Positions 13,601-16,600 of a DNA stretch of 64,000 bases are shown here, in pieces (the first letter of the stretch is position 1; the number at the start of each line of letters is the position of its first letter). Source of the DNA: Candidatus Heimdallarchaeota archaeon (GTDB lineage Archaea; Asgardarchaeota; Heimdallarchaeia; Hodarchaeales; Hodarchaeaceae). The position numbers and the translations under genes were made by a program. The stretch is from the NCBI GenBank assembly GCA_020353515.1, contig CP070695.1, positions 1,634,200 to 1,698,199 of the forward strand, written 5' to 3'. The notes beneath the pieces were generated by a model, which searched no databases, was not told where the DNA came from, and saw only the letters and a program-made list of their open reading frames with translations.

Positions 13601-16600
13601 AGCTCTGGACTGTCCGGTGGAGGTAAAAGTTTTAATGGGAATCCAGGTGGTCGAAATTCAAACCCAATTTCAAAGTCCCAGAAAAGGAAGGTGAGGGTGA
13701 GCTTTGCCCAAAAAACTATATCGAGTGTTATCGTAAAAGGCCCAAGATTACCAGGAGTTAGATCTTGGTGGAATATCAGATAAATATCTAATCCGATCTT
13801 GAAAACAATCCCGACGATCCTCAGATCTAAACCAATCGTAATATACGCTCCTATTCCAAGAGTCAAGGTCAACGAACCTTGAGCAGGTTCTCCATTATGG
13901 GCAGCTTTCTGATAAATTTCGAACGCAGCAGATAACCATATCGTTAGCGTTAACACATCTAGACCAATATACTTCATTGCTTTGTTGACTGTACCAGCGG
14001 CAGCTGCACCTCCCCCTGTGCAATACAGGATAATTTCAATAAGTGTAATATCTTTTGAGACTTTAAAACCTATACTGAAATGCCACTCAAGTATTTTCAT
14101 AAACCCCTCGGGGTCGAAACCACCAGATGCAAACGAGAACAACTGGATTGAAAATCCAATCGACCCCCATACTTCAAGATCTATACCTAGAGGGGCAAGA
14201 ACCGCCCCAAACACCCCTCCACCGCCTGAAGATACTGTTGAAGCAGTCAATGAAGCTGAAAATACTGGAGCGAATGAAATGAAGGTTATAATCTTCGTAA
14301 AGAATGCTGGGATATCTAGTTTGAAGTCATTTATACCTGTGAAAATAATGTCTTCAATCCATTCTCTGAAAGCCTCATTATCCCAGTAGATGTTCAACCC
14401 AATTGACAGGTTGAATGAGAGCTTAATTCCAATAACGTCGCCTCCTGGAAGAGGGATGTCACCTCCAAGATTTAATAATGGTTTGGCTGAAATTTTGTCT
14501 GCAATCTTTCCAGTAAAATCACTTATCAGGTCTGCAAGGAATGATGCGAGTAAGGTTTTAAATTCTTTAAAGATAAAATCTATGCCACCTGACATGAGAT
14601 CTTTAATCATAAATAGATAATATATTCCTTTTTCAGCTAAATTTACAAGATAAGGTGCAACTTCTTTCTCTTCTAATGCATCTCTAACGATTTCTTGAAG
14701 TTGTGCACAAGTCTGTGTTGCATTGAATGCTGCGTCTCCACCGAGAATATTATTACCTACTAATCCTGTAAAGAGACTTTGAATCACTTCCATCATAGCC
14801 GTACCATCTAATCCAATGTAATCAAAGAGTAAAGCACCAGCTTGCATTGCTGCTGCTCGTAAAAATGAGGTGATGGAATTTCCCTTAGCAGAAAGAAGTA
14901 CTTGTGCTACAAATAAGATACCATTAGCAAAAACTTTAACCCCTGTCTTCAAACCTGATTTTATTCCCTCTGTGGTATTTAATCCATCAATCCAAATTTC
15001 AAATAGACCCAGTACTGCATCTCTTCCGATTAGAACTATTTTCGTTTGGATTTCTTTAAGTTCAAGAGTTTTATTCTCCCCCATGCTTTCCATAGCTCCT
15101 TCAGATAATTTACTAGCATCATCTACCAACAGTAGTTGAGCTGCTGTATTTTGCTTACCTAGTGCAATTATCCCAAAAATAGTCTCAAGAACTATGAAAA
15201 AGACCCTTTCTTTTGTGTCTGATACAGTCTCATTGACAGCAGTAATGTTTAAGAATTGTTTACTTACGGATTTTATATCGGATGCAAATGGTTCTGGCAT
15301 ACTTGGTATGCAAATAGCTCCTAACCATGCTAGAGCGTCAATAAGTGTTTCTGCCTCTGTTGAATCGGTCGGGAGAGAATTCTTGCTCATGCTGCTGGAA
15401 ATTAATTGTTTCAATTGATTGCGATCTGTTAGTTGATCTACAGAAGCAGTTGTAATAATAGATATCAAATCTTTCGAAAATAAAGAAACACGTTGATCAT
15501 TCGCACTTAATGTGACCCCTAACATCGGTAGAGCAGCATCAACTACCTTGAAAAGCATTTTCTGATTTGCATTCGCTGTGTCATTTTCACTCCCTATAGT
15601 CCAGTACTCCATTGCTTTTCCAGGAAGAGTGAAAGCATCAAAGAATGCCATCGCAGTGCGATAAAATTCGCTTATTGTTGAAATAGCACTTTCTTCTCGT
15701 GATGTCAAGTTCTGTTTAGTCATTTTTTGGAATAGATATTCAACAAAATCAGGTATTGTTTCCATGAGATCATCAAAATCACCAGTGGTAAACGCTTTAA
15801 CTAAAGGAGAAAGAAATCCCATCATTTTTCCTATTTCTTTTAATAATGGACTTTTTGTATCATTAAGAACCGATGCCCACCATGAATAGGTGCTAGCATT
15901 TAGAACTTTGTCTATAGCGAAACCCACAATAGTATTCAGAAGATTAAACTTTTTTCCGTCTTCTTCTGCCTTTTCTTTTTCACTGATTATTTTTTCTGCA
16001 AGTTCAACCCCATTAAGTAATGTTCCTTTCAAAATTTTAAGCATCGTGTTTACTGCTGTATTATTAACGTCCCCAATAACTGTAAAAATCGTTTCCACTA
16101 TTGATCCAGCGAAATCTGTGATATCTGTTGGATCCCCACGAATTAAGTATAGAGCATCTACAACAAGAGGTAGAAACGGTTTAATTTTCTCTGGTATTGG
16201 TGCATTATCAGTAATCAGTGTAATAAGTTTTTTAATAGTCCCTTTGACATCTCCTTCTCCCTCATCACTTGAAGAGAACATCAAAGCAATATCTTTAATG
16301 GTATTGCATATATCAATTGCAGTTTCAGGATCTAATCCAAGTGCACTTCCACCAAACTTAATTAATACGGATAGAATAGCATCAATTACCTCTGCCGTTG
16401 GTCCCTCTATCCCAGAGAAAAATGGAAGATCAGAAATTTTAAATTCAGCTTCATTATCATTTTCATTAAATATCCGGACTTGTGTTTCAGGAACAGGGGT
16501 AGAATCATTATCAAATCGTCTAATTGATTGATCAGGCATAACTTGATATGCATCAGCCCAACTTTCCATTTTTTCATCCCAAGCTCGGGCTTTTGCCACA

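What the first reader, a model, noticed from the sequence alone, without database searches (positions are those of the whole stretch)
13654..16430. A' head: ~650 aa of amphipathic helices followed by an amphipathic beta-strand domain
Seen: a long helical region with regular hydrophobic faces, then about 10-12 long strands, many with alternating or dense hydrophobic residues (IKLSFNLSIGLNI, IDLEVWGSIGFSIQL, SLTLTLGIGAYITIGLDL, IVFKIGLDIYLIF, KLTLTFLFWDFEIGFEF) and Gly-rich turns. Established: this pattern occurs in beta-barrels, beta pore-formers and lipid-transfer grooves. Inference: archaea of this type lack an outer membrane, so an exported, stalk-mounted domain like this might bind or transfer lipid, or insert into another cell's membrane.
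Basis: inference. Interest (0 to 1): 0.72.

Follow-up and report, generated by a model that had tools for sequence, protein, structure and literature searches.

The report
Oily-faced sheet head of Asgard giant
The flagged stretch is the real, conserved head of a giant surface protein found only in Asgard archaea (here a Hodarchaeales genome): about 650 residues of unusually greasy helices followed by a curved sheet of ten long strands that is oily on one side only and shaped like part of a bacterial outer-membrane barrel wall. Whether it binds lipid, enters membranes or simply buries that face in its own core is still open.

Summary
Observation confirmed. Window 13654-16430 (-) encodes residues 297-1222 of an intact 2,224-aa ORF (10645-17319, -). 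An alignment-based AlphaFold2 model (pLDDT 78.7) gives 27 helices, then 10 strands of 7-19 residues. Across 54 family members the strands alternate strictly. One face is I/L/F/V (90%). The other is T/G/S/E/K/D.

It is not an ordinary membrane barrel: there is no aromatic girdle (Tyr 0.8%), no Omp85 gene in the genome, no Pfam hit and no real PDB sequence hit. The lipoprotein-transfer (MTP/vitellogenin) hits are weak (TM 0.09-0.11).

The family occurs in 94 of 400 Asgard genomes. At all seven loci examined it abuts a giant FG-GAP propeller protein.

My best reading (0.45) is that the oily face packs on the domain's own amphipathic helices in a surface-complex head. Lipid binding (0.25) and conditional membrane insertion (0.15) remain open.

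This scan has found the same domain before on other Asgard DNA, with the same unresolved question. I found no paper describing it.

The parts
10645..17319 (-). Gene A' (2,224 aa): giant single-pass surface protein carrying the finding
   Evidence: Intact ORF. Orthologues of 2,199-2,251 aa at 73-95% identity over residues 900-1235, from Hodarchaeales MAGs.
17212..17292 (-). N-terminal hydrophobic segment (residues 10-36): signal peptide or signal anchor
   Evidence: Kyte-Doolittle peak of 2.73. Whether it is cleaved was not determined.
16432..17202 (-). N-terminal globular domain (residues 40-296), unassigned
   Evidence: No Pfam hit. A profile of 28 homologues finds nothing real in the PDB.
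14488..16431 (-). Helical region (residues 297-944): 27 helices with 30-50% ILVFMW positions and N-glycosylation sequons in the loops
   Evidence: AF2 model. Helix hydrophobicity. 10 sequons against 3.9 +/- 1.9 expected.
16030..16431 (-). Conserved N-block of the helical region (residues 297-430)
   Evidence: Matched separately in most distant homologues. Median identity 29%, against 15% for the middle part.
14488..14655 (-). 56-residue amphipathic helix (residues 889-944) leading into the sheet
   Evidence: AF2 model H593-648. Heptad-like conserved hydrophobic stripe.
13642..14487 (-). One-sided beta-sheet domain (residues 945-1226): 10 antiparallel strands plus 5 short amphipathic helices. 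It is the best-conserved part of the head.
   Evidence: median identity 33%. Fold matches.
11278..13578 (-). Ca-binding TSP3-type repeat region (residues 1248-2014; 19 strict DxDxDG-type motifs)
   Evidence: Pfam PF18884, E 2.8e-24. Motif count.
10954..11061 (-). Thr/Pro-rich linker (residues ~2087-2122)
   Evidence: Read directly from the sequence.
10666..10752 (-). C-terminal transmembrane anchor (residues 2190-2218), followed by a short basic tail
   Evidence: Hydropathy 2.43; the tail is KRRQALI.
17316..26804 (-). Partner gene B' (3,162 aa): FG-GAP propellers, two C-type lectins, LTD, PQQ-like propellers and a C-terminal TM. Its stop overlaps the A' start (ATGA).
   Evidence: Pfam. TM segment and gene junction.
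5360..10632 (-). Downstream genes D (846 aa: beta-helix ectodomain, TM, TPR tail) and E (911 aa: all-TPR, no TM)
   Evidence: Pfam. TM scan. The same four-gene order occurs in L004.
29809..45907 (-). Second copy of the pair: paralogue A (39290-45907; 2,205 aa; 34% identical to A') and B (29809-39288; 3,159 aa), in the opposite gene order

Best explanation
Residues 297-1226 are the ectodomain head of an Asgard-specific giant membrane-anchored protein, the 'A' member of a conserved A/B giant pair.

Shown:
- The head is a very hydrophobic array of 27 helices ending in a 56-residue amphipathic helix.
- It is followed by a single 10-strand antiparallel meander sheet. One face is almost purely Ile/Leu/Phe/Val. 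The other is Thr/Gly/Ser/Glu/Lys/Asp.
- The sheet has the curvature of an outer-membrane barrel wall.

Inferred:
- Ten strands with the curvature of a 16-strand barrel cannot close, so the sheet is an open half-barrel.
- At rest, its oily face is packed against the domain's own conserved amphipathic helices. These are the long helix, the five helices inserted between strands, and the last helices of the helical region.
- The conserved block 784-1235 is therefore a self-contained two-layer alpha/beta body with a very large greasy core.
- The head serves as the assembly or binding end of the A/B surface complex (a cell coat or adhesion structure), held on a Ca-binding TSP3 repeat region. It is not a permanently membrane-embedded barrel.
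For: - Curvature: rmsd is lowest for 16-strand barrels (TamA 3.6 A over 153 residues, PgaA 3.9/180, CdiB 4.3/183, FhaC 4.4/175). It is 7.6-8.2 A for 12-strand autotransporters.
- Faces: there are 56 family-wide hydrophobic positions (I 28, L 28, F 23, V 11, W 4, Y 0.8 %) and 70 polar positions (T 14, G 14, S 13, E 12, K 10, D 9 %). The oily face is more conserved (entropy 1.55 against 2.16 bits), as in buried cores.
- The five inter-strand helices and the long helix carry conserved hydrophobic stripes, with 38-67% ILVFMW positions in all but the last inter-strand helix (21%). They can only pack on the oily face.
- A 1,576-aa variant keeps just block 812-1235 plus the stalk, so that block folds as a unit.
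- No aromatic girdle. No Omp85 gene in the 96%-complete single-contig genome, while the control search finds it in 7 diderm bacteria.
- Surface-complex context: a C-terminal TM in both A' and B', with an ATGA overlap between the genes. An FG-GAP giant abuts the A gene at all 7 loci examined. Sequons are enriched in the helical loops.
Against: - No coordinates were available, so burial of the oily face, concave or convex orientation and absence of a cavity are all untested here.
- The oily face has almost no Ala, Gly or Val-type small residues (A 1.9%), which is unusual for tight helix-on-sheet packing.
- GRAVY of +0.37 over 940 extracellular residues is membrane-protein-like and may need more than a protein core to explain it.
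- By my rough count the in-block helices supply about 44 hydrophobic positions against 56-80 on the sheet, so part of the face may stay uncovered.
- Foldseek's top whole-head hits are lipid carriers.
- Several polar-face residues are nearly invariant (K1075, T1092, E1134, Q1185, D1186). That hints at a functional site which this reading does not explain.
Confidence: 0.45

Rival explanations
1. Lipid or hydrophobic-ligand carrier. The oily face, together with the long helix and the greasy helical array, encloses a pocket or groove that holds lipids or isoprenoids. It would work like LLTP (MTP/vitellogenin), TULIP or helix-grip proteins, and let the cell take up, hold or hand over lipid at its surface.
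For: - Foldseek's best PDB hits for the whole head are MTP 6i7s (E 2.6e-4, prob 0.89), vitellogenin 9ens, lipovitellin 1lsh and apoB 9bd1. These share the order 'helical array, then large amphipathic sheets'.
- GRAVY of +0.37 for an extracellular region.
- The oily face is made only of large aliphatic or aromatic residues.
- A sheet wrapped round a long amphipathic helix is the general plan of TULIP and helix-grip lipid binders (established knowledge; the resemblance was not tested here).
Against: - TM-scores to LLTPs are only 0.09-0.11 with rmsd of about 36 A.
- When Foldseek's hits are re-aligned, barrels outrank them and no LLTP is in the top 50.
- No Vitellogenin_N, lipid-transfer or any other Pfam hit.
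- No TULIP, RBG or START fold in the top 50 of the wide search.
- An earlier checked note of this scan (e1-546922) states that the fold shows no oily cavity. I did not verify this.
Confidence: 0.25
2. Latent membrane-engaging device. At rest the helices shield the oily face. On contact or a Ca signal they move away, and the half-barrel lays on or inserts into a membrane. That membrane could belong to a partner bacterium or another archaeon, or be the cell's own outer leaflet if the N-terminus stays anchored. The result would tether or perturb the membrane.
For: - The sheet resembles only membrane barrel walls.
- Strict hydrophobic/polar alternation over 8-19-residue strands.
- A polar face rich in Gly/Ser/Thr, like barrel lumens (the comparison rests on established knowledge).
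- The partner B' carries two C-type lectin domains that could recognise foreign glycans.
- Cultured Asgard archaea live in physical contact with partners and have an unexplained irregular protein coat (10.1101/2025.07.22.663070; 10.1101/2025.11.06.686947).
Against: - No aromatic girdle, and Tyr at 0.8%.
- The hydrophobic stripe runs the full 50-60 A of the strands, longer than a bilayer core.
- Ten strands cannot close a barrel alone.
- No Omp85-type insertase in the genome.
- No match to pore-forming toxins or fusogens.
- The oily face is more conserved than the polar face, the opposite of lipid-exposed barrel surfaces.
Confidence: 0.15
3. Oligomeric barrel, or a sheet shared with a partner. 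The open sheet is one segment of a larger closed barrel, or a continuous sheet formed by several A copies, or it is capped by protein B. In that case the monomer model's open edge is an artefact of folding one chain.
For: - Curvature fits barrels of 16 or more strands, yet only 10 strands are present.
- The 56-residue helix has a heptad-like stripe that could form a coiled coil.
- A is always encoded next to B and is sometimes fused with it: ORFs of 4,716-4,901 aa.
Against: - No direct evidence for any oligomer.
- The in-domain amphipathic helices already offer a partner surface for the oily face.
Confidence: 0.1

Closest known systems
Walls of bacterial outer-membrane beta-barrels (CymA 4d5b; Omp85-type TamA 8us1, FhaC 4ql0, CdiB 6wil; PgaA 4y25; autotransporter beta-domains; TonB-dependent transporters)
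   Different: Only 10 strands, with the curvature of a 16-strand barrel, so probably open. No Tyr/Trp girdle (Tyr 0.8%). Amphipathic helices are inserted between strands. No sequence relation (4-14% identity; no Pfam hit). The host has no Omp85 gene, and imaged Asgard cells have one membrane. The domain sits inside a 2,224-aa single-pass protein.
Large lipid transfer proteins (MTP 6i7s, vitellogenin 9ens, lipovitellin 1lsh, apoB 9bd1)
   Same: The same order of a long helical array followed by large amphipathic sheets. These are the top Foldseek hits for the whole head (E 2.6e-4 to 3e-2).
   Different: TM-scores of 0.09-0.11. No LLTP Pfam domain. One sheet rather than two enclosing a funnel. 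No evidence of a cavity. The protein is membrane-anchored with a TSP3 stalk.
Bacterial TSP3-repeat surface proteins (Pfam PF18884) and the thrombospondin type-3 repeats
   Same: The ~770-residue region after the head is made of DxDxDG-type Ca-binding repeats (PF18884, E 2.8e-24).
   Different: That similarity covers only the stalk, not the flagged head. None of those proteins is known to carry this head (0 Pfam hits for the head).
Integrin alpha/beta heterodimers
   Same: Two co-encoded type-I membrane giants with short basic cytoplasmic tails, one of them built on FG-GAP propellers.
   Different: A' has no recognisable beta-I/vWA, PSI or EGF module. Binding between A and B is not shown.
'Badge' protein LOKIASV2_13140 of Nerearchaeum marumarumayae (bioRxiv 10.1101/2025.07.22.663070)
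   Same: Described as a very large predicted surface protein of novel fold with very large beta-sheet domains, conserved in Promethearchaeaceae.
   Different: The preprint mentions no stalk, no partner gene and no one-sided sheet.

Membership tests
Outer-membrane beta-barrel proteins (OMPs) | Closed barrel of an even number (8 or more) of transmembrane strands | tested here: inconclusive
   The model has 10 strands. Its best geometric fit is to 8-10 strands of 16-strand barrels (rmsd 3.6-4.4 A), against 7.6-8.2 A to 12-strand barrels. An open sheet is inferred, but coordinates were not inspected.
Outer-membrane beta-barrel proteins (OMPs) | Lipid-facing surface with Tyr/Trp aromatic girdles at both strand ends | tested here: not met
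   The oily face is I 28, L 28, F 23, V 11, W 4, Y 0.8 %. Aromatic positions are scattered mid-strand, not at the ends.
Outer-membrane beta-barrel proteins (OMPs) | Host has an outer membrane and an Omp85/BamA insertase | tested here: not met
   PF01103 finds nothing in the 4.94-Mb single-contig genome (96% complete), while it matches 7 diderm control genomes. Cultured Asgard cells show a single membrane.
Outer-membrane beta-barrel proteins (OMPs) | Sequence match to an OMP family model | tested here: not met
   No Pfam hit at E up to 10 for residues 930-1240 or for a homologue. No PDB sequence hit in the sheet.
Large lipid transfer proteins (LLTP: vitellogenin/MTP/apoB) | Vitellogenin_N / LLTP sequence signature | tested here: not met
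   Pfam finds only TSP3_bac on the whole protein, and nothing on the head at E up to 10.
Large lipid transfer proteins (LLTP: vitellogenin/MTP/apoB) | N-terminal barrel, double-layer helical domain and two sheets that superpose on an LLTP structure | tested here: inconclusive
   Foldseek E 2.6e-4 and prob 0.89 for 6i7s, but TM 0.09-0.11 and rmsd of about 36 A. No LLTP is in the top 50 after re-alignment.
Large lipid transfer proteins (LLTP: vitellogenin/MTP/apoB) | Large hydrophobic lipid cavity | not testable with these tools
Bridge-like / tubular lipid binders (RBG: Vps13/AsmA; TULIP: BPI/SMP) | Structural match to a beta-groove or a helix-in-sheet tubular domain | tested here: inconclusive
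   None is listed among the top 50 of either VIA search or in the Foldseek list. The 944-residue model may hide weaker domain matches.
Bacterial TSP3 repeat (PF18884) | Repeated DxDxDG-type Ca-binding motifs above the Pfam cut-off | tested here: met
   85.1 bits against a cut-off of 25. 19 strict motifs between residues 1248 and 2014. This applies to the stalk, not to the flagged head.
Asgard A/B giant surface-protein pair (defined so far only by this scan) | An A protein of ~2,000-2,300 aa (head plus TSP3 plus C-terminal TM), directly adjacent to a giant FG-GAP propeller protein | tested here: met
   Both window copies, plus L004, L005/L006, L015, L014+L016 and the short variant in L013. 94 of 400 Asgard genomes carry the head.

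The most novel reading that the evidence does not exclude
The half-barrel is a latent membrane- or lipid-engaging device that Asgard archaea hold out from the cell. This greasy, barrel-wall-like sheet would be unmasked on contact, guided by the lectin/propeller partner B. It would then latch into, or draw lipid from, the membrane of a syntrophic partner cell. That would be an archaeal, insertase-independent counterpart of bacterial outer-membrane barrel walls, and a concrete molecule for the cell-cell membrane contacts invoked in models of eukaryogenesis.
Probability: 0.17. Interest if true: 0.9.

Novelty: new variant of a known kind. Interest (0 to 1): 0.62.

Why it matters
[quoted passage not shown] The cultured ones lack an S-layer and carry an unexplained, irregular protein coat, and they live attached to partner microbes.

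This head domain occurs in about a quarter of Asgard genomes and 39 of 85 genera. One carrier is a 6.04-Mb single-contig genome whose size matches Lokiarchaeum ossiferum; that identification rests on my own knowledge and is tentative. The domain belongs to no described family and is as greasy as a membrane protein, yet it is predicted to lie outside the cell.

If the oily face is merely buried, this is a new fold for a surface-coat or adhesion complex. If it can be exposed, it would be the first archaeal protein with a barrel-wall-type membrane or lipid interface. That would make questions about Asgard-partner membrane contact directly testable with a defined 450-residue construct.

Tried and rejected
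- Single-sequence AF2 of residues 880-1240 gave pLDDT 47. It was used only as a hint of long hairpins and not for fold searches.
- Complex prediction with the helical part (model 1-648) against the sheet part (649-940) returned no answer (score 0.00 against a mark of 0.32). The controls were not folded and no contacts were returned. This says nothing either way, and I had hoped it would show which face the helices touch.
- Model coordinates are not exposed to the script box. Burial, concave or convex orientation and cavity volume therefore could not be computed.
- Pfam on the head, the sheet and the N-domain found nothing real. The only hit was MC4 at E 0.016, below its cut-off.
- The PDB profile search matched only designed helical repeats and karyopherins in the helical part. 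These are compositional matches; the sheet matched nothing.
- ESM Atlas by features gave a best score of 0.88 to unnamed Bacteroidota clusters and 0.81 to DUF6603, all below the tool's trust level. Atlas by shape gave OM barrels only, with query-normalised TM at most 0.23.
- The viral fold library has no hit at E <= 0.001 and no fusogen.
- TcdA1 toxin hits in Foldseek have prob <= 0.12 and were rejected.
- A PDB profile search with the N-domain found only chance hits.
- Literature searches for Hodarchaeales giant proteins, Asgard plus FG-GAP, TSP3, integrin or beta-barrel found no description of this family. The Asgard START lipid-transfer preprint concerns a different fold.
- P0039, which has the same length as paralogue A, turned out not to be the paralogue.
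Full report
**What is at the coordinates.** The finding (13654-16430, minus strand) is residues 297-1222 of one intact 2,224-aa ORF at 10645-17319. From the N-terminus the protein has:
- a hydrophobic segment at residues 10-36, either a signal peptide or an uncleaved anchor (about 20 hydrophobic residues; not resolved);
- an unassigned globular domain (residues 40-296);
- the flagged helical region (297-944) and sheet domain (945-1226);
- a Pro-rich joint, then about 770 residues of Ca-binding TSP3-type repeats (PF18884, E 2.8e-24; 19 strict motifs);
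- a Thr/Pro-rich linker, a C-terminal transmembrane helix (2190-2218) and a 7-residue basic tail.

GRAVY is +0.25 for the helices and +0.62 for the sheet domain, against -0.84 for the repeat region.

**Is the pattern real?** Yes. The sheet domain holds 21 windows of 13 residues with at least 6 of 7 alternate positions ILVFMW and at most 1 on the other register. Shuffles give 1.4 +/- 1.8 (maximum 11 in 2,000). The rest of the protein has none, and other beta-rich giants in the window show only scattered single cases. In an alignment of 54 family members, almost every strand position is either at least 90% ILVFMW or 70-90% polar.

**Organism and family.** The window lies in a single 4.94-Mb contig. 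Proteins that are 90-95% identical are named Hodarchaeales (Asgard) by NCBI.
- An exhaustive HMMER scan of 1.84 billion representatives found only 52 clusters. Nearly all the full-length ones are 2,000-2,300 aa.
- The conserved parts are residues 297-430 and about 800-1235. The sheet is the best conserved (median identity 33%, against 15% for the middle helices).
- In 400 Asgard genomes the head occurs in 94, covering 39 of 85 genera. Among high-quality genomes it occurs in 25 of 90.
- A 1,576-aa variant keeps only block 812-1235 plus the repeats. That block therefore behaves as one folding unit.

**Gene context.** A' is translationally coupled to B' through an ATGA overlap. B' is a 3,162-aa type-I protein with FG-GAP propellers, two C-type lectins, LTD and PQQ-like propellers. 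Downstream come a beta-helix/TM/TPR protein and an all-TPR protein. The window holds a second pair, A and B, in the opposite gene order. An FG-GAP giant abuts the A gene at all seven loci I examined, including two single-contig Loki-type genomes. Some genomes have A-B fusions of 4,716-4,901 aa.

**Fold.** With the 54-row alignment, AF2 gives pLDDT 78.7 and pTM 0.62. The model has 27 helices, the last one 56 residues long. Ten strands follow (nine of them 8-19 residues), with five short helices between them.
- Foldseek's top PDB hits for the whole head are MTP, vitellogenin, lipovitellin and apoB (E 2.6e-4 to 3e-2). Their TM-scores are only 0.09-0.11.
- The rmsd is lowest for 16-strand barrels (3.6-4.4 A over 153-183 residues) and worst for 12-strand ones (about 8 A). 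I infer that ten strands with this curvature form an open half-barrel. This is an inference, because coordinates cannot be read.

**Anatomy of the two faces.**
- The oily face has 56 positions: I 28, L 28, F 23, V 11, W 4, A 1.9, Y 0.8 %. It has no aromatic clustering at the strand ends, and its entropy is 1.55 bits.
- The polar face has 70 positions: T 14, G 14, S 13, E 12, K 10, D 9 %. Its entropy is 2.16 bits, but several positions are near-invariant (P1018, G1052, K1075, T1092, E1134, Q1185, D1186).
- By established knowledge, membrane-embedded barrels have Tyr/Trp girdles and lipid-facing residues that vary more than lumen residues. Here both are the other way round.
- The genome has no Omp85 gene, while the control search finds it in seven diderm bacteria.

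So this is not a conventional transmembrane barrel.

**What does the oily face touch?** The 56-residue helix and the five inter-strand helices have conserved hydrophobic stripes. They are tethered by short linkers, so they can only sit on the oily face, because the other face is polar. The last helices of the helical region are co-conserved with the sheet, and the short variant retains them. This supports a self-contained alpha/beta body with a very large greasy core as the resting state. Two points argue against full coverage: the near absence of small residues on the oily face, and the membrane-protein-like hydropathy of the whole 940-residue head. I could not settle the question.

**Exposure.** N-glycosylation sequons are enriched in the helical region (10 against 3.9 +/- 1.9), mostly in inter-helix loops. 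Only one lies in the sheet domain. This is consistent with an extracellular helical surface and is only weak evidence.

**Literature.** I found no paper describing this family. Cultured Asgard archaea are reported to have an irregular protein coat instead of an S-layer. One preprint mentions a very large 'badge' surface protein with very large beta-sheet domains. Its kinship to this family is untested.

**Earlier notes of this scan.** The same domain was followed up in at least four other genomes, with the same conclusions: a half-barrel, no known family, and an unresolved oily face. A later check put the pair in 23% of Asgard genomes, which my count reproduces (94 of 400). That check also stated that the fold has no oily cavity, which I could not test.

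**Verdict.** The domain is a real, conserved, undescribed, barrel-wall-like one-sided sheet on a greasy helical base, at the head of an Asgard-specific giant surface protein.
- The most likely reading (0.45) is a buried oily core in an A/B surface-complex head.
- Lipid binding (0.25), conditional membrane engagement (0.15) and an oligomeric or partner-completed sheet (0.10) remain open.

Noticed in passing
L013:7389-12119 (+), with neighbour L013:12116-16999 (+): A shorter A-type variant (1,576 aa; ORFs of ~1,500-1,650 aa in about ten genomes) keeps only the conserved block (A' residues 812-1235) plus the TSP3 repeats. It overlaps by 4 nt a giant NHL/FG-GAP propeller gene.
   Followed up: partly
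window 46505-50275 (+); L004:25200-26447 (-): A very large FtsX/MacB-type permease (1,256 aa here) lies beside the A/B cluster in this window. An FtsX gene also lies near the cluster in a distant relative's contig. This is a possible recurrent neighbour, of the kind that moves lipid-modified or hydrophobic cargo in bacteria.
   Followed up: no
window 13760-14100 (-), residues ~1075-1186 of A': Near-invariant polar-face residues (K1075, R/K1089, T1092, E1134, D1165, Q1185-D1186) and invariant P1018 and G1052 stand out on an otherwise variable face. They may mark a binding site or a contact with another domain or partner.
   Followed up: no
window 16432-17202 (-), residues 40-296 of A': The N-terminal globular domain has no Pfam or PDB-profile match. 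Across 28 homologues it has invariant W96, G201 and P264 (positions in the aligned segment, which starts at residue 36).
   Followed up: partly
window 17316-17319 and 39286-39292: The two A/B pairs in the window have opposite gene orders. B' comes before A' with an ATGA overlap. A comes before B with a 1-nt spacer. Each junction has a GGAGG Shine-Dalgarno sequence inside the end of the upstream gene.
   Followed up: yes
window 14488-16431 (-): N-x-S/T sequons are about 2.5-fold enriched in the helical region (10 against 3.9 +/- 1.9 expected), mostly in inter-helix loops. The sheet domain has only one.
   Followed up: yes
G356:C50, G346:C144, G364:C28, G347:C38: Open frames of 4,716-4,901 aa contain the head, consistent with natural in-frame A-B fusions in one genus.
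   Followed up: no
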